A stretch of DNA of 64,000 nucleotides, from contig OX597826.1 in NCBI GenBank assembly GCA_951406725.2, positions 64,790,001-64,854,000 of the forward strand. Direction: 5' to 3'. Made by a program: the position numbers and the translations under genes. This document shows, piece by piece, positions 1,083 to 59,480 of the stretch. The notes below the pieces were generated by a model, which saw only the letters and a list, made by a program, of their open reading frames with translations, ran no database searches and had not been told where the DNA came from. Within the stretch, counting starts at the first letter, position 1. Every line of letters begins with the position of its first letter. The DNA is from Octopus vulgaris. Taxonomy: Eukaryota.

Positions 1083-1153
<71 letters not shown>

Positions 1154-2789: not shown

Positions 2790-2920
2790 TTATTGTCTGG
2801 GGAGAGTCATTCTGTTTCAATGCCTTATTCACTCGCACACTTACCGGTTCGATTTTCACTCATTTACTTATTTATTTTTGCTAAACTTTTCGTTGCTTCT
2901 TGCAACCTCTTCAATAGTAG
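2790..2920 (-). mobile_element. Single-arm copy of the family at 36350 and 43604, with hammerhead-like motif at 2881-2917
   Basis: Shares tgtctggggagagtcatt...accggt; reverse complement reads cta-TTGAAGA-g-GTTGC aagaa GCAAC-GAA-aagt-t-tag. Confidence 0.65.
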
Positions 2921-3030
2921 TTTTTTTTTAAGTATGCAAAGTCAGAAATTGATTGCCCCTACATTTTCTTATACCAGCTAAAATGTCCCTCACCGGGTGA
3001 GCTTTCAGTCTACCTCCCATTGAGAGCTAT

Positions 3031-14283: not shown

Positions 14284-14510
14284 TGGCGGCCAGCTGGCAG
14301 AAACGTTAGCACGCCGGGCGAAATACTTAGCGGTATTTCGTCTGTCGCTACGTTCTGAGTTCAAATTACGCCGAGGTCGACTTTGCCTTTCGGGGTCGAT
14401 TAAATCAGTACCAGTTACGCACTGGGCTCGATATAATCGACTTAATCCGTTTGTCTGTCCTTGCTTGTCCTCTCTGTGTTTAGCCCCTTGTGGGTAATAA
14501 AGAAATAGGA
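14284..14510 (+). mobile_element. SINE family B monomer
   Basis: ggcggccagctggcagaaacgttagc...gtgggtaataaagaaatagg. Confidence 0.88.
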
Positions 14511-15362: not shown

Positions 15363-15531
15363 TGGTGGCGAGCTGGCAGAAACGTTAGCACGCTGGGCGA
15401 AATGCCTAGCAGTATTTCGTCTGCCGCTACGTTCTGAGTTCAAATTCCGCCGAGGTCGACTTTGCCTTTCATCCTTTCGGGGTCGATAAATTAAGTACCA
15501 GTTGCGCACTGGGGTCGATATGATCGACTTA
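15363..15531 (+). mobile_element. SINE family B, 3'-truncated
   Basis: Family consensus match. Confidence 0.85.
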
Positions 15532-15554: not shown

Positions 15555-15916
15555 AATAGAAATATTAAAATTACTAAGTCTCTCTAAAAGAGATTACGGC
15601 AGCGTTCCTGGAAATTAATAGTTATCGCCATACTAATATGGCATTCTTATAAAAATAAGAAAAAAACTGTCCGCTTATTAGCTCCATGAGGCCATCGCCT
15701 TAAGTTAGCTATTCGATACACAAACTGTATCCATATAACCTTCGAAGGTTATATGGATACAGTTTGTGTATCGAATAGCTAACTTAAGGCGATGGCCTCA
15801 TGGAGCTAATAAGCGGACAGCTTTTTTCTTATTTTTATAAGAATGCCAGTTTGTGTATCGAATAGCTAACTGGCGATAACCTCATGGAGCTAATATATAT
15901 ATATATTATATGGCGA

Positions 15917-17302: not shown

Positions 17303-17593
17303 CGTGGGGTATCACGACCTGGTTGTGATCATGCCACTGGTGCCAAGCTGTATCGTCCTTTCCCTTTCCCTTGGCTAACATCGGTGGCGTGTAGAGGGGA
17401 GGCTGGTATGCATGGGAGACTGCTGGTCTTCCATAAGTAACCTTACCCGGCCTTGTACCTCGGAGGGGAACTTTCTCGGTGCAATCCTGAGGTCGATTTG
17501 CTCGACTAAAGGTGGTGCTCCAGCATGGCCACAGTCAAATGGCTGAAACAAGTAAAAGATTATTAGTGGTTTTGTGATGATGTTACATTGGTA

Positions 17594-19450: not shown

Positions 19451-20142
19451 CCACATTGGCGATGTTAGAAGTGATACTGGTTGTTGTGCGATACTAATTG
19501 TGATAGTCACGTGGTGGAGTTTATTCCACGAACGTTCAAAAACAACATCCCGTGCTACATCATGCCACACACCAAGGTTACCGATACTAAATTGCTCACT
19601 GAACCGTTCGGAGCCTGCCAACTCGCTGGCGGATAGGAAGCTGAAAGCTGGAAGCTTTTATTTATATATATTTATTTTTTTAAATTTATTTATTTTTATA
19701 TTTTTTTTAAATATATATATATATTTTTTTTTTTTTTTAACCCTGCTTACACAGAAAATTGATATTGGGAGAACTGAAGAAAAAGTCGGGAAAGAAACGG
19801 ATCTCTTTGCCTCATTAAAAAAAATACTCATTTATTTATTTACTCTTTTACTTGTTTGTCATTAAATTGCGACCATGCTGGAGTTAGGTGAACGAATTGC
19901 CCTCCCCGCTAGCTTTTATTTTAAGTTTGATACTTATTTCATCAGTCTCTTTTGCCGGAATCTAAAAATATGGAGACATAAACAAACCAGCATCGTTTGT
20001 CAAGCTGCAGATGGACAAACAGAAGCACATAACCATACATACAGGAAAAAGAGAACTTCTATGGAATATTAATAAGGAGTTTGCAAATCCAGTATCCAAG
20101 ACACACTTTCAGTTTCATACCTATTATTATTGGAAAAATATG

Positions 20143-20801
20143 GGATCTTTTCATTTCCAAGGCCTGTTTTGTCAGATTTTTCTAGTTAACTAAATAATTT
20201 GAAACTTCGTATACTGGTAGAGTGTCTCAAAAGAAAACACTAGTTTCAACTTGTTTATTTGAGAAAAATGTATTTTATAACTTTAAGGGTAGATTAAATC
20301 TGCAATTTTAACCAATCGTATTGTTTGTTTTCATTTGACATAATTAACTGCATTATCTTAGTGTGACGTAGAAAGCTATTTTGTGACGTAGACAGCTGTG
20401 CGTAGGTCTGTGTTTTGTGTGCGTGTGTGTGTGTTTGATGGGGTGTGGGAGACAGAAAGTATGTTGTGTAAGTAAAGAAGTCCTTCTGTTAGTGTGTGTG
20501 AAGAGACAGAGAGAGTAATGTGTGAAAGAGAAAGATAACTGAAATTTTTTACTCGGTGTATGTGTATATGTATGTATGCATGTATGTGTGTGTGTGTGTA
20601 TGTATCTATGTATGTGTGTGTGTGTATGTATGTATGGCCGATTCAGTGTTTACATTATTTCGAGTTAAAACGAAAGATTACCAAAAAAAATGTCTTTATC
20701 TTCGATCACTGTCATTATTCCATTGAGTCAACCTCATTATTTTCTACATAGCAAAGGTAATCTTTCGTTTTAACTCGAAATAATGCAAACACTGAATCGG
20801 C

Positions 20802-20832
<31 letters not shown>

Positions 20833-21308
20833 ACATACACAGACATACGAAAGATTGCCAAAGATAAAAAGTTACAGAAATAAAAGTTACACGAATAAAG
20901 TAAGGAATAAAAATCACAAAAAATATACGAAAATTTACAAAAACTAAGTTAGTTATATAATATATAAGTTTAATATATAAGTTAGTTAATAATATATTTA
21001 AAAAATGTGAATAGAAACTGAAGGAATACGGTAACCGGGTGTTTACATTTCACGTATGTTAAATACGTCAGCAAAATAGCCGTTTACGTCTATCGAGACG
21101 GAGTAAATAATATGAAGCCGAAAGACCGAATACCATTGGTTAAAATTCTAATTATTAAACAACGTTAAACTTTGAAATTACAATTCCGTTTTCATTCTGG
21201 TTTACAATTATGTTTTCTTTTGACACATTCTACCAGTATACGAAGTTTCAAATTGTTTGGTTAAGTAGGAAAAATCTGAAAAAACAGGCCTTGGAAATGA
21301 AAAGATCC
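20143..21308. mobile_element. Non-autonomous DNA transposon with ~105-bp TIRs, Merlin-like
   Basis: TIR GGATCTTTTCATTTCCAAGGCCTG...; exact 8-bp TSD aaaatatg (20135-20142 and 21309-21316); 5'-GG ends plus 8-bp TSD fit Merlin/IS1016. Confidence 0.8.
20635..20803. mobile_element. MITE with ~48-bp TIRs, TA-flanked (Tc1/mariner-like), nested in the Merlin-like element
   Basis: ta|TGGCCGATTCAGTGTTT..GAAAGATTACC ... GGTAATCTTTC..CACTGAATCGGCCA|ta. Confidence 0.8.
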
Positions 21309-21479
21309 AAAATATGTATCACTCAGTCTTGAGTAAGGTTTGGGTGAATTTGGTTTCCAAATATTGCGAATTCAAACATCGACACACTTCCCATGCCCCC
21401 CCCACCCACAACTATAGAAATCAACAACATTTTAGAAGACACTATAAATTATTCAATTATAACAATAACTATGCAGGGC

Positions 21480-22175
21480 AGAATAGGAACAACTCGGGGA
21501 GGAGATGGGAAATTATATGGTTCACACGCCATTTTCCCCTCCAGGTCAGAAACCTCCTTAAATTATTTTCTTGCATTATCGGTAGGAACTTCCAACTACG
21601 TCATAAATATCATTCAATATTTAACAGATCCTGCCTTAAATCATCTTACTCAACCACACCCAATCTAGGATCTATAATCGCGGTCAACAATATAATTAAA
21701 CTTAGAAATAACAACACTAATAGTGATGATAACTTAGCTGACCTTAATATGAAGAATAATAAGAAACCTGATATTAAAAACAGAAAGGCTAAACCTGGAA
21801 ATAAAACAAGTAAAATATGTAATTGACGTAATAGGGAGCTTTATCCCCTAAAAGGTTTCAGTTTAAGGAGAGATATATAAAGTTGAAGTCTCAACCCTTA
21901 ATGAACCTAAAAAGATTTACATAGGTAGTACGACTGATTTTAAGATTATATATAGGGCGCATACAAACTCACTTACTAACCACGAAACAAAAAGCTTCAA
22001 CCACAAAAGAATTCAGTCTAGATTGGTCTATAATAACGGAAACCACACCATATAATACACACGAAAAATTGCAATTTATGCACGAAGGAGGCGATCCACA
22101 TACTCCGCGCCAACGAAAATAACTTACTTAATAAGATAGCTGATGTCATAACTACCTGTAGATATAAATATCTTT
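21480..22175 (+). pseudogene. Penelope-like element remnant: linker and GIY-YIG endonuclease, frameshifted
   Basis: IIWF...HKYHSIFNRSCLKSSYSTTPNLGSII, then CN*R..PL.G, IYKVEVSTLNEPKKIYIGSTTDFK, WSII..TPYN, CNLCTKEAIHIL..NLLNK..CR. Confidence 0.8.
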
Positions 22176-22559
22176 CAACTTTTAAATTCTTCCCCCAAAT
22201 AGTTAGCCTATAGGATCCTTCATATTATGGACTACTCTTCATATTACGGGCTCTTCTTAAAATACTATTATATATAGCGACGTTATGTACCTTCACCTGT
22301 AATTTTAATTTTATCATCTGCATGAAACATACGTTTTTTTTTTTAATTCTCAAACCTCTCATATCTCTTAAAATTTTAGCAACTCTTTGAATAACAACAC
22401 GGCGAGAATATCGGCACAAGGCCAGCAAGTTCGAAGCAGGGGCTAAGTGTTCAACTTATTTTAATAGCAACTTATTGTAATAGCAATCCAAAATAATCTT
22501 ATAATAGCAATGCTTAGGTAAGAAAGCATACTTGATTTTAAGATCACTGAATATAGATG

Positions 22560-23520
22560 CCAATCCCTCTTCTTCACACATTTTCAGGCCATGTTAGATG
22601 GAATTTTCAAGAAGAGATTTCGAACCCAATCATACTCATCTGTGTTTAATGACGGGAAATAAAAGTTTATTTTCTCTTCCAGATTTATCAAATGTTCAAA
22701 TACAATAGGAGTCATTTCTTTTATGCAGCTTTTATGTATTAAGGGAAACATTTCGAAGTCACCACCTTTTGCTCTATTTTTCCAAATTACAACTTTTTTT
22801 TTTTAATGAAGCCAACTTATCTGTCGAAGTGAAAATGTTTTCAACTCTACCTTACATACCTGTATTGACGCTATTAAGTTGTGCAAATATCTCTGTTAAA
22901 TATTCCAGCCTAGAAACCTAAAATTCACATTGTAGATATTCCAAGAAGCTTTCGTGTTTTTCTTCTTTAAAAAATGCATGCAATTCCTTCTGGAGTTCAT
23001 GTATGCACCTTACCTTTTGAGAGCCATCTGACTTTTGTGTGTAAAAGTAAGCGGTTGTGCTGGGAATCCATATCAACACAAATTTATTCAAATAAGCGAC
23101 ACATCAACGGCCTACTTTTAATATAATTAACTATTTCAACAATTTGGTTTAATACTTGCTTTAATTCAATTGGTATTGTTTTTGAAAGTAGTACCTCTCT
23201 ATGTAGGAAGCAATGAGTACGTATAGCATTAAGATTTTGCTGTTGTACAAGCGATACAAAACCTTTAATAGAGCCTATCATAGATGGTGACCCATTGGTA
23301 CATATTCCAACACATGGATAAATTCCGTTTTCCGAAGTAGGCAGACAAAATGTCAAAAAATATCTTGATCTCTTGTAGTGAGCGGTATTTCTTCGCAACA
23401 AAAGAACTGATTTATAATATGGTTAGCATCAATAAAGTGAATAAATGTAATTTGTGCTTTGTTGCTAATATCAGTTGATTCGTCAACCCATAGAGCAAAT
23501 TCTGAGTTCTTGATTTTTTA
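22560..23520 (-). pseudogene. hAT (Buster/Charlie, ZBED5/FAM200-like) transposase remnant
   Basis: EFALWVDESTDISNKAQ; GICTNGSPSMIGSIKGFV; THCFLHREVL; IVNYIKSRPL..RLF; frameshifts. Confidence 0.88.
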
Positions 23521-24160: not shown

Positions 24161-24194
24161 TTGCAATTTATCGCGAATTATATTTGAGGCTGAT

Positions 24195-24616
24195 AAGGCG
24201 GCGAGCTGGCAGAATCGTTAGCACGCCAGGCGAAATGCTGAGGGGTATTTCGTCTGCCACTACGTTCTGAGTTCAAATTCCACCGAGGTCGACTTTGCCT
24301 CTCATCCTTTCGGGGTCGATAAATTAAGTACCAGTTATGCACTGGGGTCGATGTAATCTACTTAATCCGTTTGTCTGTCCTTGTTTGTCCTCTCTGTGTT
24401 TAGCCTCCTTGTGGGTAGTAAAGAAATAGGTATTTCGTCTGCTGCATCGTTCTGAGTTCAAATTCCACCGAGGTCGACTTTGCCTCTCATCCTTTCGGGG
24501 TCGATAAATTAAGTACCAGTTATGCACTGGGGTCGATATAATCGACTTACTCCGTTTGTCTCTCCTTGTTTGTCCTCTCTGTGTTTAGCCCCCTAGTGGG
24601 TAGTAAAAAAATAGGT
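24195..24616 (+). mobile_element. SINE family B dimer
   Basis: Second unit restarts at ggtatttcgtctg (~24429). Confidence 0.88.
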
Positions 24617-25216
24617 ATATTTGAGGCTGATTAGAGAGAGAGAGAGAAATGTCTGAACGGTGATATTTCGAATTAGGCTTCTTGTTCCTTAAGTATTTGA
24701 CAATAATATCACTATGACCAGTTTTCAAGATACCAGATGAAATGTCAAGTAGTAAAATCGGGTGCTTTATAAACTAAGTCAACTAATTTTGCTTCATGCT
24801 CTTTTTTTCTCTTAATTCTAATGCTAAACGTGTGTGTGTTTTGCTGTTGTTTCTTTTATTTGTTTTCTGATAACAGCCGTACATTTCGTGTCCTACTGTT
24901 CAAGCCTTGCTCACTGTAATCAGTGGTTAGTCATCTTCACTCATATAAAAGACATGTTCGACTTTGAATAAGATTGTTTCCGTGAGGAATAAGGGGTGGG
25001 TGTAGATTAAAGTTAAAAACGTTATTTTGTCATAACTTCAATGACAAACATTCAACAAGTTTTTTGTATAAATAAACTGCTTCTGCTTTTGTGCATATTG
25101 TAGTTGTTGTTGTTGTTGTTGTTGTCTTAACAATTGCTGTTCTTGTTGTTGTAGCAGTCTTTTATCTTTTTTTCTTTTTTGTTCTGAGTCATCTCTTTGT
25201 TAAGATGTAAAGTACT

Positions 25217-25535: not shown

Positions 25536-26734
25536 CAGTTCTCACACGCGTACATAATGCATGCGTCTGTTCGTGTGAGTGCGCGCGCTAAGGTAGATGG
25601 ATGTGTGAACAGACATAATTAACAGTGGCTTTGTCACTGCTTCCTCACTATTTAGGTGACAGAACATTTGTTTTCGTTCTCCTCTATTTTAACATTCCAC
25701 TCTTCCGCACTGCGCTTACCTTTACTTTTGCTCTGCTATCTTGACAGTCACACATTTTTACTTGACAGGACAACCAACTTTATTATGATAATAATTATTT
25801 CACTGTCGATATAACTTGAGGTTTGGGCGATTACTGGCCTTAATCGCCACCACCTGGGATAGTCTTTTAAAGTCATTTTTTAGGACGTCATAGCCCACTC
25901 AAGTAGGAAGTTGTTTGCGAGATATATCTATGTGTCGCTGGTTTGTCTGGTATTTCAGGGAGCAATTAGTTCAGATTTCGTAATGGATTTTTTTTTTGAG
26001 CAAAATAATTTCCCGTTCACCATTTTTGCTTTGTAGTTTAACACTAGATCATCTTTGATCATCGAACAAACTTAGGATCAAAGACATCCCAGTCTTGACC
26101 ACCCTGTCCCATTTTTAGGAGTATTAATAACTTTATTTAATGGATTTTTTGTTGTTTTTTGGGGTTTCTTTTTAAGGTAGCAAACGTAGTTTGAGGGAGA
26201 TTGGACTGCTATTTCTGATGGGTTGGAAGACAAGAAATGTTGGCAGAAGTGTTAATGTCATTTATTAATGATTTTATTATTGATCTTCAAAAACAATAAC
26301 AACAACTATAATGATCTTTCAACTTCAGGCACAAGACCTGGAATTTTGAGGGGACACGGATAACCAATTACATCAACCCCGAAAGGCAAAGTCAAACTCG
26401 GTGGAATTTGAACTCAGAACGTAAAGACGGACGAAATACCGCTAAGCATTTTGCCAGTTCGACGCCTTAACAACAATAATAATAATGGTTTAAATCTCTG
26501 TTCAAGGCGAGCAATTTTAGATGAGGATTTGTTCGATAACATCGACCCCAGTTCTCCAGTGATATTTATCTTATGATCTCCGAAAGGATGAAAGACAAAG
26601 TTGGCCTCAGCGTTTTTTAATCTCAAAACGTAAAGAACTGGAAGAAAAGCTGCGTGGTGTTTCATTCAACACCATGGCGATTCTGCCAACTTAGACATAA
26701 GGACAAAAAAAAAATTCGTTGTTTTTATAGATTA

Positions 26735-27124
26735 CTAGCAGTATCGCCCGTCGTTGTTCGGGTTTGTTTCGACCCCTTAGAATTGGAATTTTTGAAAAGT
26801 AAACATTTTGCATTATGTATCTTGTTATTCTCTTTAAGTGAACATTTTTCTGGTTGAAATACACCGAAAAAGGGCGACACAACGGTAAAAAAATCGTAAA
26901 AAATAGGGATTTTCATAGAAAAAAAGCACCTTTATGATGTAAATAATTTTTGATGTTAACATGGTCCGATTTGATTTTTTTCTTCCACGGAATGAAGAGC
27001 AAGCCTTCTTCTATCATACTCTCAATTTTGGTCAACTTGCGGCGCAGGGTCTCGGAGGAGATAGTGTTAGTTGAAAGCTACAAAACCTGCCATACACAGA
27101 TAACTTCAGCTTTATATATATAGA
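26735..27124 (-). mobile_element. Non-autonomous Helitron (~390 bp)
   Basis: Minus strand a|TCTATATAT...cccga acaac gacggg hairpin..CTAG|t; inserted A|T; second copy at 45485. Confidence 0.88.
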
Positions 27125-31354: not shown

Positions 31355-31680
31355 ATTCTTTTATTCTTTTACTTGTTTTGGTCATTCGATTGCGACCATG
31401 CTGGAACACCGCCTTTAGTCGAATAAATCGACCCCATGACTTATTCTTTGTTAATCTGTGTGTTTTTACCGAACGGCTAGGTAACGGGGATATAAACACG
31501 CCAACATCGGTTGTCAAGCGATGGTGGTGGTGGTGGTGGGGGGACAAAACAGACACAAATAACAAATGTATACATACATATACGACGGGCTTCTTTCAGT
31601 TTCCGTCTACCAAATCCACTCAAAAATGCTTTGGCCAGCCCGAGGCTATAGTAGAAGACACTTGCCCAAGGTGCCACGCT
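31355..31680 (-). mobile_element. SINE family A
   Basis: Consensus match, head truncated. Confidence 0.85.
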
Positions 31681-32679
31681 GTTATATTTGTATTTATTGT
31701 CTTATTCTATTTATTTATTATCAGGATCAAATAAATTCATGGCACGAAACATATCCTAATCTTAAAACTAAATTATTTCTACAGCCTTTATTTGGAAATC
31801 GAGATTGACTAGGTAACATGTACCAAGCTTTCGCTAAATATTTTAGGTACTTATGTAGCCGTGGTCAGACACAGACGTGCAACACCTCGTGGATATGACT
31901 GCTGGAGGGTAAGAGAGAAGACTGCTGTACTAACACTTGGTTAGTATATATTTCTCCTCAGTAGACTGGAACAAAATAAAGTGATGTACGTAGTTCAGGT
32001 ACAACACAATGTGCTGCCAGGTCCAGAAATCGAACCTACAAACTCGTTATAGTCAGCGCTACACCGTAACCACTAGGCCATAGTGTCTGATAACTATAAT
32101 TAATGGTTTCGAATTTTGGCATAGAACCAACAGTTTCTTGAAGCAAGAGTTACATTGATCCCCGGTCCTGGACAGGTATCTATTTTATCGACCTCGAAAA
32201 GATGCAAAGCAAGTCAACCTTGGCAGAATTTGAACGCAAAGTCACAAGAAAAAATGCCGAAAAGCATTTCGTCCGGGCGTGCTAACGATTCTGCCAGCAC
32301 GCGGTCTTGTCATACATCTCAAATTAATAATAATCGATGTAGCTTACATAAATTCGAATGAATTTCTCTTTTTATTAGATTTTATGCTTAATTCTTTCTT
32401 GAAACAGTGAAAATCGAAGCAGATAAAGCTATAAATAATAGTGTTAAATATTGGGTTAAAAATCCTTTCGATGGAAAAAGTCAATGGCTGCCCGTGGGAC
32501 ACGAAGCCATGTTTCTGTAAACATTATGTCAATAACCTACAATTTTCGCTGACAAAAATAAAGTTTCTAAAATGATTAGAGAAATTCGAATGATTGCTTC
32601 CTCCGGTGGTTGTACATTTGTCACCTTTACAAAAAGAGTAGGTTCGTGTCCCATGGACCGCCTTCACTTTTTGGAGACA

Positions 32680-32900: not shown

Positions 32901-33275
32901 TACAGGTATTTTATTCATACATACATACATACATCTATACCTCTAAACACCCAGACGCATTTATAACACACCATAGCACTTTTGCAGCATCTTAAAAATA
33001 ATGTCTCTACTACTCAGTCCAGGAAAAACATTAAAAAAATGAATACACATATTTAGAAATAGCGAAGAATCACTGGCCTCATTAGCTCCAACGACCAGGA
33101 TGGTGTGCACATGAACGATAAACTCAGAGAAATAGCAATCGCCCACTTCTTCTGTGGCCCCACTACTCTTAGAATCTACAAGCGTACAGATATAAACTGA
33201 AGAGTAGAGAGAGCGCAATATTCCAAAACAGTCGGAGCGTGCAGTTACGCCTTGAGTTAAGCAGAGAAATAGTAT

Positions 33276-34067
33276 AAGGCGGCGAGCTGGCAGAATCGTT
33301 AGCACGCCGGGCGAAATGCTTAGCGGTATTTCGTCTGCCGATACGTTCTGAGTTCAAATTCCGCTGAGGTCAACTTTGCTTTTCACCTTTTCGGGGTCGA
33401 TTAAATAAGTACCAGTTACGCACTGGGGTCGATATAATCGACTTAATCCGTTTGTCTATCGTTGTTTGTCCTCTCTGTGTTTAGCCCCTTGTGGGTAGTC
33501 AAGAAATAGGTATTTCGTCTGCCGCTATGTTCTGAGTTCAAATTCCGCCAAGTTCGGCTTTACCTTTCATCCTTCCGGTGTCGATAAATTAAGTACCAGT
33601 TACGAAATGGGGTCGATATAATTGACTTAATCCGTTTGTCTGTCCTTGTTTGCCCTCTCTGTGTTTAGCCCCGTGAGTAGTAAAGAAATAGGCATTTTGT
33701 CTACCGCTACGTTCTCAGTTCAAATTCCGCCGAGGTCGACTTTGCCTTTCATATTTTCGGGGTCGATAAATTAAGTACCAGTTACGCACTGGGGGTCGAT
33801 GTAATCGACTTAATCCGTTTATCTGTCCTTGTTTGTCCTCTCTGTGTTTAGCCCCTTGTCGGTAGTAAAGAAATAGGTATTTCGTCTGCCGCTATGTTCT
33901 GAGTTCAAATTCCGCCGAGGTCGACTTTGCCTTTAATCCTTTCGGGGTCGATAAATTGAGTACCAATTACGCACTGGGGTCGATGTAATCGACTTAATCC
34001 GTTTGTTTGTCCTTGTTTGTCCTCTCTGTGTTTAGCCCCTTGTGGGTAGTAAAAAAATAAGAGAAAT
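33276..34067 (+). mobile_element. SINE family B tetramer (~185-bp units)
   Basis: One head, then restarts at ~33509, ~33691 and ~33876. Confidence 0.9.
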
Positions 34068-34554
34068 ACGGAGGCTGATGGATCTGTGTCTCGGGCACGT
34101 TATTCGACCAACTACCAAATTGCCGCGGTACTGTTCGATCAAAGCTGAGCCAGGGATACACAACAACAGCAATAACAACAACAATAACAACAACAACAAT
34201 GATAACAACAATAACAACAACAACGACCAAAATTTGATTATAAGGCAAAAAAAAAAAATGGTTAGTTTCAGTTTCATGACCTTAAGCGAATGAATGCTAG
34301 CTCTACTCTTGGACAGAACACCAATTCCCGTACAAGGCATTCTCAGAATATCTAATACCCATTCCAGGCAAATGGGTAAAGTTATGTAATGAAAACTAAA
34401 ACAGCGAAACGCCGGCAGCGGATTTGAATAAACCACGTATGAACAGATAGAACAGCTTTATATGGTTGTGTATGCGTGTCTGTGGGTGTGTCTCTACTTT
34501 GTATGTATGTGTGTGGTCGATATGCATATATGTGTATGTGTAAATATTTATATG

Positions 34555-34750: not shown

Positions 34751-34990
34751 TTATATATTAAAATGGGAGAGGCCGGTTTATGGGGTTACCCCATTTTAAT
34801 ATTAACTGCTCTACATCTTAGAGTGTGCTTCTCCGAATTTATGTATTTCTACAAACGACATGTATGTATGTATATCTATACATATATCTACAAACACACA
34901 CACACACATTAAACACATACATGCATACATATGTACATTGACACGTATGGATGAATGCGCATATGTGTGAATGTCTATATGTAAGCATAC

Positions 34991-35023
<33 letters not shown>

Positions 35024-35044
35024 TGTATGTATGTATGTATGTAT

Positions 35045-35708
35045 AAAGGATTCAAGGATGCCAAAACAACTCTTTTATGGAGAGTTAGCCAAAGGAGAAC
35101 GACCTCCACATAAACCAAAAAAGAGGTATAAGGACTTGCTGAAGGCTTCCTTAAGAGATGCTTGCATCTCTCCTGACACATGGGAAGGCATAGCTATTGA
35201 TCGTAGTAGGTGGAAAAGGATTGTGCATGAGGGGACAGCCACGTTTGAGAAATCTCGAGTTGCACATGAGAAAGTAAGGAGGGATGTCAGGAAGGGCATC
35301 GCTGTTACACTTCCAGAAGGGAAGGGTCTTCCGATGATGCTGACATGCAATGTCTGTGCAAGACCCTGCCTCAGTAAAGCTAGACTCATGAGTCATCTTC
35401 GTAGTCATAAAACGAGACAGATGAGTGACAACCTGGCCACTGGTGGTGGTGTAACACACCATACTAATCATATCTGTCGGGCATGTGGAAGAGAGTGTAA
35501 TTCGGCAGGAGGACTTAAACGACATGCAAAGGTACATGAAGCCCAGTTACAACTACAGCCGGCTATTACCAGTAAAGGTTTTAGTTGCTAATTTTGTACA
35601 AGACATTGTAGATCTTAAGCTGGGCTACAAAGTCACATTCAATCAGAGCACCAGTAACAGTTAGGCTTCGCGCAATGGCCATACTCGATAACGAGGGGGC
35701 AGCCACAA
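35045..35708 (+). mobile_element. RTE-group LINE 3' fragment with C-terminal C2H2 fingers, inside (TATG)n
   Basis: RMPKQLFYGEL..G.R....PKKRYKD.LK...WE..A.DRS.W (RTE C-terminus); CNVC..LMSHLRSH and CRAC..GLKRHAKVH. Confidence 0.85.
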
Positions 35709-36236: not shown

Positions 36237-36349
36237 TATATGCTTTAATACTCCCCACATAAATTATGTCAAACATAATTCACTGTTCTCATGCACATGT
36301 TGTTTCGAGCTTATGCATTTTTCTAAACAATTTTACTTTTCAAGCCAAT

Positions 36350-36647
36350 TCTGTTGTGTCTGGAGAGAGTAATTTTCTTTTTGTAAAGTAACACACTCAC
36401 CGGTAAAATTTCCACTTATTTCTTATTTTTATTTTCCTAAAATTTTCAATGGCCAAGACTACTGAAAAGGTTGCAAGACGCATCGAAAATTTTAGGAAAA
36501 TAAAAATAAGAAATAAATGGAAATTTTACCGGTGAGTGTGTTACATTATAAGGCACAAAAAGAAAATGACTCTCTCTAGACACAACACACTTCTTCAACT
36601 CACATAAAGAATCTTGCAAGCCAAATCCAAAAAACGAAATGAAAATA
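36350..36647 (+). mobile_element. Fold-back retro-insertion with hammerhead-like motif (36459-36495) and 13-bp TSD
   Basis: Inverted arms 36352-36447 / ~36485-36587; TSD ttttcaagccaat at 36337-36349 and 36648-36660. Confidence 0.82.
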
Positions 36648-36779
36648 TTTTCAAGCCAATATGATATTGTACATTAATACAAAAATTCCTTCAACATTAC
36701 CTCAGCAAAGGCATTGAAGTCTATGTTACGCAAAAGTCATAAAAATACTGAAACAAGCATTTATTCTCGTAATTTTTTA

Positions 36780-38112: not shown

Positions 38113-38507
38113 TGTTAATAAGTTTGAAAACGGAGAGATTCAATGGATATAAATTAATTCATTAATTATTTAAAATTGCTTACAATTGTTTCCCTTTGCA
38201 TCCAGTTTAAATTACAAAACATATATAATAATATAAGTTTGCATTTTGAGCTAATCTGGGTGTAAGATCTTCAGGGCAAAATGGACATCTGAAGATCTTA
38301 CACCAAGACTACTCAAAATGCAAACATATATTATATATGTCTCGTAATTCAAACTGGGTGCGAAGTGAAAAAAAAAAAAGGATTTTTAAAATAGCTCTTT
38401 TGCTTTAGATATGAACTTTTTAATATAGGCACACAGCCTAGGCAATGTTAAATAATTAATACATTAATTTATATCCATTGAACCTCTCCATTTTCAAACT
38501 TATTAAT
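38113..38507. mobile_element. Older fold-back element with long-stem-II hammerhead motifs (38178-38277 minus; 38289-38370 plus, broken)
   Basis: Arms ttaataagtttgaaaa.ggagag.ttcaatggatataaattaat and its reverse complement; minus strand gcc-CTGAAGA-tcttacacccag...ctggatgcaaagg-GAAA-caattg-TA-agc. Confidence 0.7.
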
Positions 38508-38621: not shown

Positions 38622-38966
38622 GGAGATGTACTCGCATAGCAAGTGATTTGATCTGAGATCGTGTGCTGGAACGAAAATAATTGCAGCGTGGAAGGTGTTT
38701 GTAAGCCATTTAAGAAACACACAAAAGCCGTTCGATTCACTTCAACATTTAAGTTTTAATTTGTCAAAATATTTTCGTCGCTAAAATCCGCGACCTGTTC
38801 ACTGACAAAAATCCGAGATGCAGCACGGATTTTTGTCAGTGAACAGGTCGCGGATTTTAGCGACGAAAATATTTTGACAAATTAAAACTTAAATGTTGAA
38901 GTGAATCGAACGGCTTTTGTGTGTTTCTTAAATGGCTTACAAGCACCTTCCACGCTGCAATTATTT
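38620..38966. mobile_element. Fold-back element (292-bp inverted repeat 38675-38966, 10-nt loop) between (TA)n tracts
   Basis: Arms essentially identical (one mismatch seen); ~55-bp unique left extension. Confidence 0.88.
38832..38881 (+). ncRNA. Hammerhead-like motif with G3-C8 core
   Basis: tttgtca-GTGAACA-g-GTCGC ggatttta GCGAC-GAA-aatatt-T-tgacaaa; mirror copy at 38760-38809 minus. Confidence 0.65.
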
Positions 38967-39692: not shown

Positions 39693-39797
39693 TTTTAAAA
39701 TTTCAACTAGATGGATGATCTTTAAAATACTTTCACATACTGGGCGAGTGGGTGTGAAAGTATTTTAAAGCTCATCCGTCAAGTCGAAATTTTAAAA
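39693..39797. repeat. Imperfect 105-bp hairpin
   Basis: ttttaaaatttcaactagatggatga..tactttcaca / tgtgaaagta..tcatccgtcaagtcgaaattttaaaa. Confidence 0.8.
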
Positions 39798-43263: not shown

Positions 43264-43603
43264 ATGTGTGCGCGTGTGTGTGCGTGTGTGGATATATAGA
43301 GGCGCAGAGATGGATATGTGGTTAAGAGGTTCGCTTTGCAAACATGTTGTTTTGAGTTCAGTCCCACTGTGCCGCACTATGGACATGTGTTTTCTACTAT
43401 GGTCCATAACATGTAATTATACTGTTATATCTACCTGCATGTACGCGCACTTCTTAAGTCCCCATTCACAATTCAGAATTCTGGCGAGGTGGGATTGAGC
43501 CTCATTCTCAAGAGCCAACCCCTGCTGTCTTAGAGTAGGATTTTGCGCTTGCATTCACAAGTTTGTCGATTGTGTGGGAGTTCTCAGACAACAAGTCTTG
43601 AGA

Positions 43604-43900
43604 TGTCTGGGGAGAGTCATTTTCTTTTTTTGCCTTATAATGTAACACACCGATAAAATTTCCACTTATTTCTTATTTTTATTTTCCTTTTCAACCTTTT
43701 CAATAGTCTTGACAATTGAAAAGGTTGCAAGACGCAACGAAAATTTTAGGAAAATAAAAATAATAAAAAAGTGGAAATTTTACCGGTGAGTGTGTTACAT
43801 TATAAGGCACAAAAAGAAAATGACTCTCCCCAGACACAACAGAATATGCTTCAACACACGAAATCATATAAAGAATATTGCATACCAAATCCAAAAACAA
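43604..43900 (+). mobile_element. Fold-back retro-insertion with U3-A8 hammerhead-like motif (43713-43749) and 11-12-bp TSD
   Basis: Same family as 36350; TSD aagtcttgaga at 43593-43603 and 43901-43911; motif TTGAAAA-g-GTTGC aagac GCAAC-GAA-aatt-T-tag. Confidence 0.82.
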
Positions 43901-44772
43901 AAGTCTTGAGATTTTCTTAAGTCTTGAATCCGATGGTTTAAGCAACAGCATCATAGAGTGTAGAACTAAAAAAAGGCGCGGTTCTCATCCATGAGGTTTG
44001 CTGAGTGATGTGATACTCTGAAGCTTTCGTTTTGATATCTACAGAAGAACGAACATCCTTACAACTATCATAGCTGTCGGTTTTGATCCAGTTGAGTTAC
44101 TTAATTTTTTGGTGTCCTTGTTCGTCTAAGGAGGAGAAAAATGACTTTTGACAGTATCATGCGATAGTCTGTCCAACACTCTTCTCTCTTCATTGTGTGG
44201 GTAAGAAAAACAACTTTAAGACCCACCCGCTTAACCATAAGGAAGTTAAAGCCAATAAGATGTCAGTGTTTTGATTCTGGGATGCATCCCAAGGTTCTGT
44301 GTTTATTCTTCTACTAGAAAATTAGGGTTAATAATGGTGAGGTCGTGCTCCATGTGCACAAAATAGAATTGTAACGTCAGTGCTTTTAGTTTGCACTTTT
44401 TGTGAATGTATGTCACCTTATGTAGGTGTGTATGAGTGTGCATGTGTCTGTTGTGTGTGTGTGTGTACGTGTTGTACTAGATGTATGTGCGCTAGTTTGC
44501 ATGTTGTTTTTACTTACGTAACAGCTACACTACAGCGTGGGTTGCGAATAAATATGTATATGAAGCATTATACATATGTGAACAAATAAAAAAAAAACCC
44601 TTGTGGTCTAACCATGGGGCCTAATTTCACAGCGAGACTACTGGCATATGGATATGACTCTCTATATTTACATGTTTACTTAAGTTGTGTATATTGTATT
44701 TGTATGTGTGTTGTATTCTTTGCGCGTGTGGGCCCTGAGTCAGCATACATGATGTGTATATGTATGCGTGTT

Positions 44773-45484: not shown

Positions 45485-45875
45485 TCTCTATATATATAAA
45501 GCTGAAGTTGTCTGTGTATGACAGGTTTGGTAGCCTTCAACTAACATTATCTCCTCCAAGACCCTGCGACGCAATTTGACAAAATTGACAGTATGATAGA
45601 AGAAGGCTTGCTCTTCCTTCCGTAGAAGAAAAAATTCAAATCGGACCATGTTAACACCAAAAATTATTTACATCAAAAAGGTGCTTTTTTTCTATGAAAA
45701 TCCCTATTTTTTACGATTTTTTGACTTCTGTGTCGCCATTTTTCAGTGTATTTCAACCAGAAAAATGTTCACTTAAAGAGAATAACAAGCTACATAATGC
45801 AAAATTTTTACTTTTCAAAAATTCCAGTTCTAAAGGGTCGAAACAAACCCGAGCAACGTCGGGCGATACTGTTAG
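45485..45875 (+). mobile_element. Non-autonomous Helitron, same family as 26735-27124
   Basis: a|TC...cccga gcaacg tcggg..TTAG|t. Confidence 0.88.
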
Positions 45876-46963
45876 TAAGAAATAAAATCGCTTCCAAACC
45901 ATAAATGTAACTGCATAATGGACGGTCAGGAACTTAATTTTCCCAAATCTTCAGTCCTCGCCAACCGAAAGGGGATGCCAATTAGATTTGACTTTAATGC
46001 CCAAGAGAAAACTTACTGTAAAACAAACCATTGTCTCTCAAACAGAATTTTCTGACATGAATGAATATTTTATTCCAAGTTAGTATAAAATTAGCAGCCT
46101 TCATATATGCCAACAGCTTACTGATTATGATCCGAACATATAATAACAGGCGTTTAACTGAACAAGATAAAAAGTCGAATAATCGTAAGCTTCCAATTTG
46201 GGGCAAGAATATGCAAAACAACATTTGTATAAATTGCGGTAACTTATTCAAAAATAAAAGCAAACTGGTATACCACTTTATGGAATACGAACAATGGAAG
46301 AAACTTTTGTATAAGCACCACTCCATCAACCCCGCAGACAATCACTAGCGACCACTAACTATCTCAGCCTCAATCCTGGTACATCTTTTAGTCTCAGTAT
46401 CTTTGGTACTTATATTCTGAAAGAAAATAACGAAGTAGGCTTCTCTTTCACGTTATCGTTTTATACTGGGAGCTACGGCATATTTTAGCGAATATGATCC
46501 TCTCTCTGAAACGTTTAAGACAAGCATGAACAACCTTTTACGTAGAACTGAAAGTTATGAGATATCGCTCAGCATAAATCAGTCCAAACTACTAAAACAA
46601 TATTTTAACAAGCCACATAGATAAGACAGAGTATACCATATGTTACAGTAAGTATATCATTAAAAGTTGATCGAGAAAAAATTTGACTGAATGAAAGAGG
46701 GAGAAAGAGAACGGGATAAACAGAGAGAGTCACGAATTGTTCAAATGAATAAAGTCTGACCTTAAAGAATCTCTCTCTCTCTCTTTCTCTCTTTATATAT
46801 ATATATTTTTATTTATCTATTTATAGTAAAGGCATTACTATATATAAATGCCTCACACTAGGAGGGACTCTTAAAGTCAAAACTACCATAATAAATAAAC
46901 ATATTGTACCGTATACGACGGAACGCAACTCTCAAAGCGAGCATTTTAAAAACAGAATTCAGC

Positions 46964-47399: not shown

Positions 47400-49150
47400 G
47401 TCGCAGCAGCATCTCCAAGACTGCATTCAAGTTGAGGGTTGAAGCAAACTTACATCATTGTTTCCAACTTATACTTTGTGTGATCTTCAGAATATATTTT
47501 TCCGCAACATACTGGTAACTTTCATGTAACACTTTTGAAATACCAGTCAAATTTCAATGCCAGTTAATCTCTAAAGGAATTCTGTCACACATTGCACTTT
47601 ATTTGCTAAGATTTTGCGTGTTAGTTTGGCTTTCTTTGCTAATCTTAGCTATGTCATTTGCTATTTCCTTTAATCGTGATTCACTGTAACTGCGTTTGAC
47701 ATAATGGTGTACAAAAGCATTTGCATGTTTCCAGTAATCCTCTATGTAAGTACAAATACGTTTTATTCTCAAAAATTGGGGGTTCGGATTCGGCCGAATT
47801 ATATAATATGGATAATTGGAGCGGCGGTGGAGGCAAATGTGGGATGACTTGGGCTTACAAAATAACTCTGTCACTATTCTGCCTCCAGAAAACATAACTT
47901 TTGTGTCCAAAAATGTTTGAAAAACTAGACGTAAATTTTATGCTGGACTTAAAGCCATAGTCTTTAGCATAACAGTCACAGAAATGCAAGAAGTCGATTA
48001 AACTATCCTGTGATCCTTCCCAGACATAAAAGACGTCATCAATGAACCGTAACCAGAGTATTGGGTTATGACGATATAGGGATTTGAATGTCTTCAGGAA
48101 CTGTGCACGAGTTTCGTCATGAAGACATAAGTGAAATTAACTGCCATGGGGGTACCCATGGCGCTACCCCTGGTCTGGTAGCAATTTGTTTTTGTCCAAA
48201 CCGTTTTTCAAAGGCATTCATGCATGCTTCTACCCCTTCATCGTGGTCAATATTGGGATATAAGGAAGAAACATCCATGGTTACTAAAAAAAGTTTTCGA
48301 GATGGCTTCCGTACTTAAAAAAGTTGCTGATCTTAGACACAAAATCAAAAGTATCCCGAATATAGGAACTTGATCTTTGTGCGATAGGGATCAGAAAATC
48401 ATCCAGCCACTCCAAAACTTTGGCTGTACAACATTCATATCCGCTGCAAATTGGGTGCATTGGAGGAAATCTTACGGACATTTTGTGTATTTTGGGGAGA
48501 CCATAAAATGCAGTTGTTCTTTTTATCCGTAAATTCTTGGATTCGGCCTTATAAATGAAATTGTTTTCCTCCATTTCCAGAATTATTTTGTCAAGTTCTC
48601 TGTAATTGGGGTTTGGATTGACAGATAATTCTTCATATGAAGTTTTGTCACTTAAAACTCTTCACAAGCCGAAGTATACTCTTATCTACCATTTTAATAA
48701 CAATAGAATCATTATTAGCGAGACAACGGAGTGCGTAACACTGGGAATTTGTGAGGTTATTTCAGGACTTCTTTCCACTTGTTTTAAGGCTTTCTCTAAT
48801 GCCTGCCTGACAAGATTTAAGAAATTCCAGTAGTGCTTGTGAACGTCCATGCTGAACTGTATCTGGCTACCAATTGGGATTCTTTTCAATTTAATTATGC
48901 CGGATTCGATCATCATCATTTTTATTTTCAGTAAGCATAGAGTTTTCTGACTATTCGTTGTCATTTTTTTCAAAAACATATTCCTTCAGCTTTTGATGAC
49001 GGACAAACTGAAACAGCCCTTGAGCTAGTTTATTCTTAGTACTTTGGCAGAAACTCAGTCCAAGCTCCAAGACAAAGACATCATCTGGTAAAAGTTTTCT
49101 TTTTGCCAGTTGTAAACTTGAAAGTTGAAGACTGATATCATTCCATCGAC
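47400..49150 (-). pseudogene. Penelope-like element reverse transcriptase (Neptune-like), decayed
   Basis: LGLSF; IVIK.VDK; FYGLPKIHK; SYIRDT.DF; [17 protein letters not shown]; GVAMGTPMA; WLRFIDDVF.VW; FLD; QFLRIKRIC. Confidence 0.9.
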
Positions 49151-50502: not shown

Positions 50503-50912
50503 TGTAGGAATGGCTGTGTGTTGAGTAACTTGCTTACGAACCACATGGTTCCGGGTTCAGTACCACTGCGTGACACCTAGGGTAAGTGTCTTCTACTATA
50601 ACCTCGGGCCGACTAAAGCTTTATGAGTGAATTTGGTAGACAGAAACTGAAAGAAGCCCGTCGTGTGTATGTGTGTGTGTGTGCGTGTGTGTGTATGTTT
50701 GTGTGTCTGTGTTTGTCCCCCCAATATCGCTTCACAACCGATGCTGGTGTGTTTACGTTCCCGTAACTTAGCGGTTCGGCAGAGACCGATAGAATAAGTA
50801 CTAGGCTTACAATGAATAAGTCCTGGGGTCGATTTGCTCGACCAAAGGCAGTGCTCCAGCATAGCCACAGTCAAATGACTGAAACAAGTAAAAGAGTAAA
50901 AGAGTAAAGAGT
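50503..50912 (+). mobile_element. SINE family A, full length
   Basis: Head to (agtaaaag)n tail. Confidence 0.9.
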
Positions 50913-52651: not shown

Positions 52652-52692
52652 CAACTGAGGAGACATAACGAAGTCGAAACACCGGTGAATTG
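52652..52692 (+). ncRNA. Hammerhead motif with mutated cleavage triplet
   Basis: caa-CTGAGGA-GAC ataacgaa GTC-GAAA-caccggtg-AA-ttg; U16.1 replaced by A. Confidence 0.6.
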
Positions 52693-53369: not shown

Positions 53370-55215
53370 TTTGACTGGGACGTTGTCAGGGAGCCCCCGA
53401 TCTCCCTCATCTAGAGTGTATATCTAAATGTTGTTCCCTAAGATATCAGTCATCTTATTTGTGCTAGTCATGGAGATATTACTAAGATCTATCACAAAGA
53501 CACCAATTAAGAGTTTTTTATGGACGACGTTACTGTATTATCAGAAAGTAGAGAAGCAGCAGATGGAACATTAGAGCGGTTGGACGAACTAGTAGGATGG
53601 ACGAGAATGAAATTCAAAGCCAAAAAATCTCGAAGCGTGGCTTTCGTGAAAGGAGTCCAAAAAAGAAGTGAAATTCAGGATAGGAGGTGAAGATGTACCA
53701 ACAGTGAAAGAACAACCAGTAAAGAGTCTCGACAGATGGTACAGAGATTTACTAAATGATAAGAAGCAAAGCAAAGAAACACACGATTTAGTGGAACAGG
53801 GGCTAAAGGCAATTGACAGAACAACATTACCGGGGAAATTCAAATGTTGGATACTGCAAATTGGACTGTACTCGAGGATAATGTGGCCATTGCAAATGTA
53901 CGAAAAAGCCCTGAGTAGAGCAGAAAAGATGGAACAAAGATGCAGTGTGTTTATCAGAAAATGGTTTGGTCACCTAAAACCACTGAATACAACTGCACTA
54001 TATGGAAAACCCGTGCTGCAACTACCGATAACATCAATTGCCGAAGAATATAAGGCAGGAAAGGCAAGGACAGTAATGATGCTAAGGTATTCGAAAAATA
54101 AGAACATCCGAGAAAACCCTCCAAAGGTACGAACAGGGAGGAAATGGAATGCGGAAGAGGCAGTAAACAGGGCGATCGGAAAGCTAAGGCACGCCGACAT
54201 AGTCGGAGCGGCGCAAGAAGCAAGAGCTGGTCTAGGGTTGCACAATTTCAAGCCATTTTGCAAGAGCAGTATAAACGAGATGAAAGAGGCAGTGGTACAT
54301 GAAGTGAGAAAGGAGGAAGAAGAAAGGCGAAATGTACATTTGGTGCAATGTAGTCAACAGGGACAGTGCCTAAGATGGGAGGAATATGTGGTCAGTCGCA
54401 GAATCTCATGGAAGGAACTTTGGGCTTGGCAACAAGCAAGAACATCCTTCTTGGTCAAGTCTACCTTCGATGTTTTACCTTCACCAGCGAATTTAGTCCG
54501 CTGGAACATACAAACAACTGATGAATGTAGATGCGGAGAGAAAGCGACGGTGAGACATGTTCTGTCAAACTGCAGGCTAGCACTAGACATATATACATGG
54601 CGTCACAATCAAGTCCTCGGTGTCATAAGCGCAGCGCTCAAGAAGATCGAGGGATATAATAGGGGAGAGCACCCAAAAATGGAAAAGCGCGGAAGGATAT
54701 ACTTCCAGAAGGAGGGAAAAGGACATAAAGCCAGGCCTTCAAATAAGGTACAAGAGACAGACGAAAGATGGAAGGGATACTGGGAGCTGGCCACGGATTT
54801 GGAAAGACTGTTAATATTTCCATTCATAAAAACAACAAAAAGACCGAACTTAATCCTATGGAACACAGAACGGAAAATTGGAATTTTGCTCGAGCTGACA
54901 CTGCCATGAGAAGAGAACATCACTAATGCAAAGCAACGGAAGGAGAAGAGGTATGAGAGATTAATCGAAGAGTGCGGAGAACAGAGATGGACTGTCGAGT
55001 ATTACTACCTGACAATGGGAGCTAGAGGCTTCACTGAAAGGAAAATGGCGACGTTATTTAAAAGAAGGTTTGCATTTTCGAGCTCAGAGCTGAGAAAAGT
55101 AATAAGGAGGATACAGGGGGAAGTCGACAAAGCCAGTTTCTATATATGGCTAAAAAGAGAAGACTCAAAATGGCTCGAAAGCCATAACATGCCGACTGGG
55201 AAATACCGTCGCTAG
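53370..55215 (+). mobile_element. 5'-truncated RLE-type non-LTR retrotransposon (HERO-like): RT C-half, zinc knuckle and restriction-like endonuclease
   Basis: FMDDVTV, WTRMKFKAKKSRS, EQPVKSL.RWY, LPGKFKCW, YKAGKAR, DVLPSPANL.RW, C.C..HVLSNC, YTWRHNQVL, RPNL..LELTLP*EE, GARGF; frameshift and stop. Confidence 0.92.

Positions 55216-59436: not shown

Positions 59437-59480
<44 letters not shown>

What the first reader, a model, noticed from the sequence alone, without database searches (positions are those of the whole stretch)
36337..36660. Long, locus-specific TSDs bracket whole fold-back units
Seen: 13-bp ttttcaagccaat flanks 36350-36647 and 11-12-bp aagtcttgaga(t) flanks 43604-43900. In both, the duplication lies outside the unique right extension rather than at the inverted-repeat ends. 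Inference: each asymmetric unit inserted in a single endonuclease-primed retrotransposition event. That argues against a cut-and-paste MITE and against an assembly artefact.
Basis: partly seen in the sequence, partly recalled or inferred. Interest (0 to 1): 0.72.

Follow-up and report, generated by a model that had tools for sequence, protein, structure and literature searches.

The report
Head-to-head Penelope retroelement ends with ribozyme
These two 300-base hairpin insertions are short, gene-less pieces of a Penelope-like retrotransposon (two copies of its ribozyme-bearing end joined head to head, plus a tail, inside a target duplication): a known kind of structure, whose junctions hint at how such elements insert.

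Summary
Each ~300-nt fold-back unit is bracketed by its own 13- or 12-bp direct repeat, found nowhere else in the window and lying outside a ~60-nt one-sided extension. The unit is identifiable: its arms read outward from the centre and carry a minimal type-I hammerhead motif with the features published for Penelope-like elements (PLEs): U3-A8 core, an extra base after A9, G10.1-C11.1, palindromic helix III, 3-bp helix I. A third, 79%-identical single arm (2794-2921) keeps the motif and ends at the same boundary. Inverted pLTR + direct pLTR + tail + target duplication is the published PLE layout. The most likely mechanism (inferred, n=2) is that both target strands were primed, from the two internal reverse-transcription start sites that define the PLE tail, and the two cDNAs were joined head to head by microhomology. 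No autonomous partner, empty site or further genome could be retrieved. Verdict: new member of a known kind, moderate interest.

The parts
36337..36349 (+). Copy A left target-site duplication (13 bp; last 2 nt also fit the element end)
36350..36447 (-). Copy A inverted arm (tail-less pLTR copy). Its outer end lies 7-9 nt past the CCAGACA boundary; its inner end stops 3-8 nt before the predicted ribozyme cleavage site; it joins the direct arm through 5-nt TTTTC microhomology at 36443-36447
36443..36647 (+). Copy A direct arm plus tail
36459..36495 (+). Copy A minimal hammerhead motif (core from 36462; C3.A8 and one helix-II mismatch; predicted cleavage between 36492 and 36493)
36532..36537 (+). 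Splice-donor-like GTGAGT (GTAAGT in copy C); function untested
36583..36647 (+). Copy A one-sided extension (tail); 10 nt deleted relative to B and about 10 nt longer at its 3' end
36648..36660 (+). Copy A right target-site duplication
43593..43604 (+). Copy B left target-site duplication (12 bp; last nt also fits the element end)
43605..43722 (-). Copy B inverted arm. Its outer end is at the CCAGACA boundary; it skips the 3' half of the hammerhead and resumes within about 2 nt of the cleavage site; it runs about 10-18 nt further 5' than the direct arm, so the 10-nt loop 43705-43714 is flipped relative to copy A
43716..43749 (+). Copy B minimal hammerhead motif: TTGAAAA core (U3-A8), extra G, 5-bp helix II, GAAA, palindromic AATT; helix I broken by the junction; predicted cleavage between 43746 and 43747
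43819..43836 (+). 18-nt block identical in copies B and C, ending at the shared arm boundary (candidate proximal RT start site; holds an ATG and an acceptor-like CAG)
43837..43900 (+). Copy B one-sided extension (tail), 64 nt, ending in an A/C-rich run (candidate distal RT start site)
43901..43912 (+). Copy B right target-site duplication
2794..2921 (-). Copy C: single tail-less arm, about 79% identical, with the hammerhead motif (U3.G8) and the same 3' boundary as B's inverted arm; no convincing TSD

Best explanation
Each unit is an ORF-less insertion of a canonical, hammerhead-bearing Penelope-like retroelement: [TSD][inverted pLTR without tail][direct pLTR][tail][TSD], with the two pLTR 5' ends meeting at the centre. 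Shown by the sequence: locus-specific TSDs, head-to-head arms, the minimal hammerhead, a shared tail-less boundary in three arms, and microhomology at both inner junctions. Established for PLEs: a GIY-YIG endonuclease nicks AT-rich DNA; reverse transcription starts at two internal A/C-rich sites of the RNA, and the stretch between them is the tail; the purified protein nicks and extends both strands (PMC11167929). Inferred here: an autonomous PLE protein, acting in trans or on its own truncated RNA, nicked the two strands about 11-12 bp apart. The bottom-strand nick primed at the distal start site and made the direct arm plus tail; the top-strand nick primed at the proximal site and made the inverted arm. 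Both cDNAs ended near the hammerhead and were joined through short inverted microhomologies (5 nt in A, up to 8 nt in B). Which cDNA ran further decides the orientation of the 10-nt loop. I put about 0.85 on PLE origin in one insertion event and about 0.5 on the two-strand priming step given that origin; the confidence figure is for the PLE identity together with the single-event insertion.
For: Hammerhead descriptor (C3-G8 or U3-A8, optional extra base, G10.1-C11.1, helix II of 4 bp or more, GAAA, palindrome, UH) hits 1 place on both strands of 64 kb, copy B. A relaxed version with helix I of 3 bp or more hits 2 places, copies A and C. 0 of 5000 dinucleotide shuffles of B's arm match with helix II of 5 bp or more, 1 of 5000 with 4 or more, and 15 of 5000 for the loosest form. 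The published PLE alignment has the same architecture in Crassostrea (3-bp helix I, 5-bp helix II with 5-nt loop, A-U palindrome, U17), the same UUGAAAA core in a Schistosoma PLE, U3.G8 in Saccoglossus and a GUUGC/GCAAC helix II in Drosophila Penelope. That paper also notes paired motifs 100-700 bp apart on opposite strands. Copy C's minimum-energy fold is exactly helix I plus helix II. C versus B identity: hammerhead 28 of 31, terminal block 18 of 18, linkers 40 of 63 (p = 0.007 and 0.002). The layout matches Adineta Pen2a: inverted pLTR shorter than the direct one, overlapping it by 15 bp, tail, 9-bp TSD. The one informative substitution groups A-left with A-right rather than left with left. 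B's inverted arm holds sequence 5' of where its direct arm starts, which one folding-back cDNA cannot supply. PLEs are 6.83% of the Octopus vulgaris genome, and a decayed PLE RT lies at about 47500-49140 of this window.
Against: No link to an RT/GIY-YIG ORF was found: both candidate leader peptides gave nothing relevant (none; two unrelated repeat proteins), and the window's own PLE fragment shares no DNA with the unit. Rfam gave no hit at gathering score. No single arm holds a flawless ribozyme, and the three copies show no compensatory double change. The extra base is G where the published consensus has H (one listed species has G). The descriptor was applied after I had noticed the motif, and the 18-nt block was defined by its own conservation. 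The tail is about 64 nt against 30-40 nt in the papers. Deletions at palindrome centres are a common decay route (my knowledge) and could mimic the junctions. The mechanism rests on two copies.
Confidence: 0.8

Rival explanations
1. PLE origin, but the inverted arm is made by self-priming: one nucleic-acid end folds back on the short central hairpin and copies itself (the reading of PMC3846280). The flipped loop in B then comes from later recombination between arms or from a differently oriented source copy.
For: Copy A's junction is what a folded-back cDNA end mis-pairing on a 5-nt TTTTC would give. A short central hairpin is present. The paper reports palindromes at such junctions.
Against: It does not by itself give a shared outer end of the inverted arm (B and C at the same base, A 7-9 nt further), and it needs an extra event for B's loop.
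Confidence: 0.3
2. The units are solo remnants: a longer PLE insertion (inverted pLTR, pLTR-ORF-pLTR, tail, TSD) lost its ORF by recombination between the two direct pLTRs.
For: The published full layout would collapse to exactly this structure with the TSD intact.
Against: Two such events 7 kb apart in copies whose arms differ by only about 5%. PLEs are usually 5'-truncated at insertion, which gives short forms directly.
Confidence: 0.15
3. A dedicated non-autonomous, already palindromic PLE-derived RNA is copied whole, like a SINE.
For: Similar unit length (298 and 296 nt) and a similar centre in both copies.
Against: The inner deletions of the inverted arms differ, the loop is flipped, both outer ends differ, and the single informative site groups arms within a copy. 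Copy C is a lone arm.
Confidence: 0.1
4. A palindromic MITE (for example Mutator-like, with TSDs of about 9-11 bp from my own knowledge) that lost the outer part of one arm in each copy.
For: The staggers are compatible with a single length of 11-12 bp. Long symmetric palindromes are common in this window.
Against: No shared terminus: the right ends differ by about 10 nt and the left ends by 7-9 nt. Losses would have to stop exactly at the TSD. The PLE-type hammerhead and the lone arm C are unexplained. None of the other 9 palindromes shows a convincing TSD with a one-sided extension.
Confidence: 0.04
5. Sequencing or assembly fold-back artefact with chance flanking repeats.
For: Fold-back chimeras occur in some sequencing chemistries (my knowledge).
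Against: Arms differ by 4 substitutions and an indel per copy. There are two independent copies plus a diverged third. The chance of an 11-bp repeat is 0.3% or less per placement.
Confidence: 0.01

Closest known systems
Endonuclease-bearing Penelope-like elements with inverted pLTR and tail (Adineta vaga Pen2a and Pen2, PMC3846280; general layout in PMC8557442 Fig. 2; D. virilis Penelope, PMC2377424)
   Same: Head-to-head inverted and direct pLTR, inverted one shorter, short palindrome or overlap at the junction, tail on one side only, whole unit inside a TSD (8-10 bp there).
   Different: No ORF between pLTRs here; TSD 11-13 bp; tail about 64 nt instead of 30-40 nt; two orientations of the central loop.
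Minimal hammerhead ribozymes of metazoan PLEs (PMC4209133)
   Same: U3-A8 or U3.G8 core, unpaired base after A9, G10.1-C11.1, palindromic 15.2-16.2, 3-bp helix I, A/U-rich downstream flank; the paper notes pairs on opposite strands 100-700 bp apart and many solitary truncated copies.
   Different: The unpaired base is G; no Octopus example appeared in the supplement searched; in the complete fold-back the motif would be buried in the long duplex.
Poseidon of Anolis carolinensis in vitro (PMC11167929)
   Same: Two A/C-rich end points downstream of the hammerhead with a tail between them; AT-rich targets; extension from both strands would give the arrangement seen.
   Different: There the ORF starts inside the hammerhead and the tail is shorter. 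In the parts I read, that paper does not derive inverted head-to-head units from two-strand priming.
L1 twin priming (recalled; seen only as a term in search listings)
   Same: TSD brackets an inverted 5' piece and a direct 3' piece joined by microhomology.
   Different: In L1 the two pieces come from adjacent, barely overlapping parts of one polyadenylated RNA. Here they overlap over about 90-110 nt, and there is no poly(A) tail.
Non-LTR retrozymes (bioRxiv 10.64898/2026.07.22.740005)
   Same: Non-coding, type-I hammerhead, argued to derive from PLE pLTRs.
   Different: Retrozymes are head-to-tail tandem arrays; these units are head-to-head pairs.

Membership tests
Canonical EN+ Penelope-like element (terminal structure) | Inverted pLTR head-to-head with a direct pLTR | tested here: met
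   polarity given by the hammerhead
Canonical EN+ Penelope-like element (terminal structure) | Optional tail on one pLTR only (30-40 nt in the papers) | tested here: met
   Present on both direct arms, absent from both inverted arms and from C; about 64 nt, longer than published
Canonical EN+ Penelope-like element (terminal structure) | Locus-specific TSD round the whole unit | tested here: met
   2 of 3 copies; C has only a 9-of-10 match, found in 105 of 1500 random placements
Canonical EN+ Penelope-like element (terminal structure) | Minimal type-I hammerhead motif in the pLTR | tested here: met
   no compensatory change among three copies; no Rfam hit
Canonical EN+ Penelope-like element (terminal structure) | Hammerhead self-cleavage | not testable with these tools
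   needs an in vitro assay
Canonical EN+ Penelope-like element (terminal structure) | pLTR and tail continue into an RT-GIY-YIG ORF in a full-length relative | tested here: inconclusive
   Two open frames run through B's tail; searches with them found no PLE protein; no eukaryotic genome collection was available
Canonical EN+ Penelope-like element (terminal structure) | Retained spliceosomal intron near the 5' end | tested here: inconclusive
   GTRAGT in 4 of 5 arms (deleted in B-left) and a CAG that would close a 48-nt intron; it lies downstream of the hammerhead, whereas in D. virilis the intron ends at helix I
Naiad/Chlamys (N-terminal EN) PLEs | Lack of a canonical hammerhead in the pLTR | tested here: not met
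   Motif present; five short element motifs were absent from the held text of the PMC8557442 supplement
MITE / cut-and-paste DNA transposon | TIR ends abut the TSD on both sides and are shared between copies | tested here: not met
MITE / cut-and-paste DNA transposon | Fixed TSD length | tested here: inconclusive
   11-13 and 9-12 bp overlap at 11-12
tRNA-derived SINE | tRNA-related head with A and B boxes, simple-repeat or poly(A) tail | tested here: not met
   No tRNA; only scattered one-mismatch box matches; no poly(A)
Non-LTR retrozyme | Head-to-tail tandem units, each with a hammerhead | tested here: not met

The most novel reading that the evidence does not exclude
These ORF-less units are in vivo footprints of coupled two-strand priming by a PLE reverse-transcriptase dimer: one nick is primed at each of the two internal RT start sites, held about 65 nt apart on the RNA. 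In both copies the distance between the inverted arm's outer end and the tail's end is about 64-68 nt although both ends shift by 7-10 nt. That would explain the PLE inverted pLTR, tail and TSD in one step. Each TSD also resembles the element's own centre in the orientation found in that copy, which hints that the endonuclease prefers sites like its pLTR 5' end. I found no such account in three searches; most subscription papers are not in that library.
Probability: 0.3. Interest if true: 0.7.

Novelty: new member of a known kind. Interest (0 to 1): 0.4.

Why it matters
For annotation, such units look like MITEs or unknown palindromes but are retroelement ends, and the hammerhead identifies them. 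For mechanism, how PLEs make inverted pLTRs and tails is described as unresolved in the papers read. Short ORF-less units keep both priming junctions, the inner junction and the TSD within 300 bases, so a genome-wide table of them would test two-strand priming against self-priming directly. Any read-through transcript would fold into about 100 bp of duplex, a plausible source of the abundant long dsRNA and hyper-editing reported for Octopus; that link is inference.

Tried and rejected
Rfam at gathering score and ARAGORN on the whole window: nothing. A canonical CUGANGA scan missed the motif because the core is a variant. Protein searches with the two frames through B's tail found no PLE: none among 2 candidates, and two unrelated repeat proteins whose scores come from many stretches. 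A search with 21269-21823 residues 70-150 found nothing. A 20-nt element motif had no match in the bacterial and archaeal genome collection. Short motifs were absent from the held supplements of PMC8557442 and PMC13282606; the latter holds only a 5-kb table and no library, and one supplement file of PMC4209133 could not be searched. The window's decayed PLE at about 47500-49140 and the region 19500-23000 share no meaningful DNA with the unit. A TSD for copy C was rejected as chance-level. My first guess that the 47-49 kb RT is Naiad-type was dropped: its best full-length relative has a C-terminal GIY-YIG. One search used a misplaced helix I and is superseded. A sigma-70 promoter and terminator scan is irrelevant to an animal locus and is not used. 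Empty sites, other Octopus assemblies, and metagenome and viral contigs stayed unchecked.

Full report
Observation. Both duplications are as described. TTTTCAAGCCAAT stands at 36337-36349 and 36648-36660, AAGTCTTGAGAT at 43593-43604 and 43901-43912, each exactly twice in the 64 kb and never on the other strand. They enclose two related units of 298 and 296 nt (83% identical), each a long hairpin (z = -17.7 and -20.2) with a 60-65-nt extension on the right only. An exact repeat of 11 bp or more in the same geometry occurs in 124 of 42,488 unmasked placements, 115 of them inside two duplicated loci; a looser search gave 1.3%. One correction: the inner 2 nt of A's left repeat and 1 nt of B's also fit the element, and the first 2 nt of B's right repeat may too. 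The staggers are 11-13 and 9-12 bp, so a single length of 11-12 bp fits both and TSD length alone does not exclude a DNA transposon.

Family in the window. BLAST finds a third member at 2794-2918: one arm only, about 79% identical, without tail. Its outer end is the same base as that of B's inverted arm; A's inverted arm ends 7-9 nt further out. The tail-less end is therefore a preferred boundary, not random truncation. C has no credible TSD (a 9-of-10 match, seen in 105 of 1500 random placements). Within each full copy the arms differ by 4 substitutions and one indel over 82-85 aligned bases, which excludes a technical fold-back; the only informative substitution is shared by A's two arms. 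The right ends of A and B differ by about 10 nt, so there is no common terminus as a MITE would have. Nine other palindromes in the window show no convincing TSD with a one-sided extension.

What the arm is. Read outward from the centre, the arm begins with a minimal type-I hammerhead motif: a 3-bp helix I (CTA with TAG), core TTGAAAA, one unpaired G, a 5-bp helix II starting G10.1-C11.1 with a 5-nt loop, GAAA, the palindrome AATT, and U17. A descriptor with these features and no helix-I requirement hits one place in 64 kb on both strands (copy B). A relaxed one with helix I hits two (A and C). The fully strict one hits none, because each copy has a flaw. Shuffles of B's arm match in 0, 1 and 15 of 5000 at three stringencies; I set the descriptor after noticing the motif. 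PMC4209133 (main text parts 1-2 of 4, supplement file 2 part 2 and passages) lists the unpaired base after A9, G10.1-C11.1, the palindromic 15.2-16.2 and a U3-A8 variant as marks of PLE hammerheads. Its alignment shows the same architecture for a Crassostrea PLE, the same core for a Schistosoma PLE, U3.G8 (as in C) for Saccoglossus and the same helix II bases for Drosophila Penelope, and it mentions pairs on opposite strands 100-700 bp apart. In C the motif is the minimum-energy fold and is better kept than the linkers (28 of 31 against 40 of 63, p = 0.007), as is the last 18-nt block (18 of 18; post hoc). Against this: no compensatory change among three copies (27 of 30 cells pair), no Rfam hit, and G rather than H at the unpaired position. 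A GTRAGT donor-like motif and an ATG inside the conserved block are present, but their roles are undecided.

Layout. Inverted pLTR, direct pLTR, one-sided tail and an enclosing TSD is the published PLE arrangement. PMC3846280 (passages and Discussion) describes an inverted pLTR overlapping the direct one by 15 bp, a 31-bp tail, 8-10-bp TSDs, head-to-head polarity and junction palindromes. PMC8557442 (passages, supplement search), PMC8969392 (passages) and PMC2377424 (passages) agree. PLEs make up 6.83% of the O. vulgaris genome in 190 families (PMC13282606, passages and supplement row). The window looks like Octopus: a decayed RT at about 47500-49140 is 73% identical to an Octopus sinensis protein and 49% to a full-length RT with C-terminal GIY-YIG. 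That element is a different family from the fold-back unit. I could not tie the unit to its own ORF, so membership rests on terminal structure and ribozyme.

Mechanism. PMC11167929 (parts 1-3 of 4) shows that a purified PLE protein nicks and extends both target strands, starts reverse transcription at two internal A/C-rich sites that bound the tail, and is modelled as a dimer. Applied here (inference): the bottom-strand nick primes at the distal site and gives the direct arm with tail, and the top-strand nick primes at the proximal site and gives the inverted arm. Both end points are A/C-rich (0.83 and 0.94 against 0.64 for the arm). The two antisense cDNAs can pair only through the short inverted repeats near the hammerhead, and both junctions sit on them: 5 nt in A, up to 8 nt in B. 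In A the direct arm reaches furthest 5' and the inverted arm stops 3-8 nt from the predicted cleavage site. In B the inverted arm reaches furthest 5' after skipping half the ribozyme, so the 10-nt loop is flipped. One folding-back cDNA explains A but not B without an extra recombination, and does not fix the outer end. The distance between the two end points is about 64-66 nt in B and 65-68 nt in A (counted in B's coordinates), though both ends shift. With two copies this is suggestive only. Self-priming, later loss of an ORF by pLTR recombination, a palindromic source RNA and central deletion as decay remain open.

Unexplained. Each TSD resembles its own copy's centre in the orientation present in that copy. 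Random window strings score as well against a 41-nt centre in 0.5% (A) and 1.6% (B) of 4000 draws, but against the whole unit in 5% and 14%, and the centre was chosen after inspection. The centres are homologous between A and B, so they are element sequence, not captured target. A preference of the endonuclease for sites like its own pLTR start would fit (PMC11167929 says the protein can cut its own pLTR), but it is not shown.

Other papers seen: PMC5625713 (passages) on abundant dsRNA-forming loci and hyper-editing in Octopus; bioRxiv 10.64898/2026.07.22.740005 (part 1 of 5); PMC8967140 (passages). L1 twin priming, Mutator TSD lengths and palindrome decay are recalled, not taken from a call.

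Verdict. Real, correctly read as retroposed, and now assignable as an ORF-less head-to-head PLE pLTR unit with tail. The structure type is known; I found no description of this family in the searches run, though unseen repeat libraries may hold it. Interest 0.4, mainly because the family would allow a direct genomic test of how PLE inversions and tails form.

Noticed in passing
window 47494-49142 (-): Decayed, frameshifted PLE reverse transcriptase after an (ATT)n run; 73% to Octopus sinensis LOC115222486 and 49% to a 1245-aa RT with C-terminal GIY-YIG. Not the partner of the fold-back unit.
   Followed up: partly
window 20143-20322 and 21129-21308; frame 21269-21826 (+): A 79% inverted repeat beside an open frame that by recall resembles the region after a PLE RT thumb; Pfam, homologue and atlas searches gave nothing.
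   Followed up: partly
window 52655-52690 (+): A second hammerhead-like motif (CTGAGGA core, 3-bp helix II, GAAA, 8-nt palindrome) lacking U16.1; unrelated to the unit.
   Followed up: no
window 1151-1460, 1579-1793, 5024-5170, 12500-12721, 15639-15848, 20627-20811, 38169-38390, 38675-38966, 39693-39797: Nine further palindromes, three of them 98-100% symmetric, in AT-rich or microsatellite flanks, with no convincing long TSD plus extension and no hammerhead hit; MITE-like by appearance.
   Followed up: partly
window 36337-36349 vs 36443-36456; 43593-43604 vs 43705-43712: Each TSD resembles the centre of its own copy in the same orientation.
   Followed up: partly
window 43919-43927: A third AAGTCTTGA lies 18 nt after the start of B's right TSD, so the target held a short direct repeat.
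   Followed up: no
window 34237-34260: A 24-nt match (92-96%) to the middle of the arm; fragment or chance.
   Followed up: partly
window 3054-3390 and many other places (e.g. 9765-10405, 10860-11218, 31374-31682, 50503-50886, 59285-59608): An abundant ~340-bp two-part interspersed repeat, SINE-like by copy number; one copy sits about 135 nt from copy C and another about 130 nt after copy A.
   Followed up: no
window 24193-24621, 33274-34062, 14281-14513, 15357-15531, 11943-13118: A ~185-bp unit found both dispersed and in head-to-tail arrays of up to four; no hammerhead hit.
   Followed up: no
window 26723-27124 and 45487-45887: A 402-bp repeat, 92% identical, in opposite orientation.
   Followed up: no
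window 17581-18342, 53650-54909, 34971-35591 (+): LINE-type ORF fragments: RVT_1 (E 3e-27), zf-RVT (weak, E 0.02) and C2H2 fingers respectively.
   Followed up: partly
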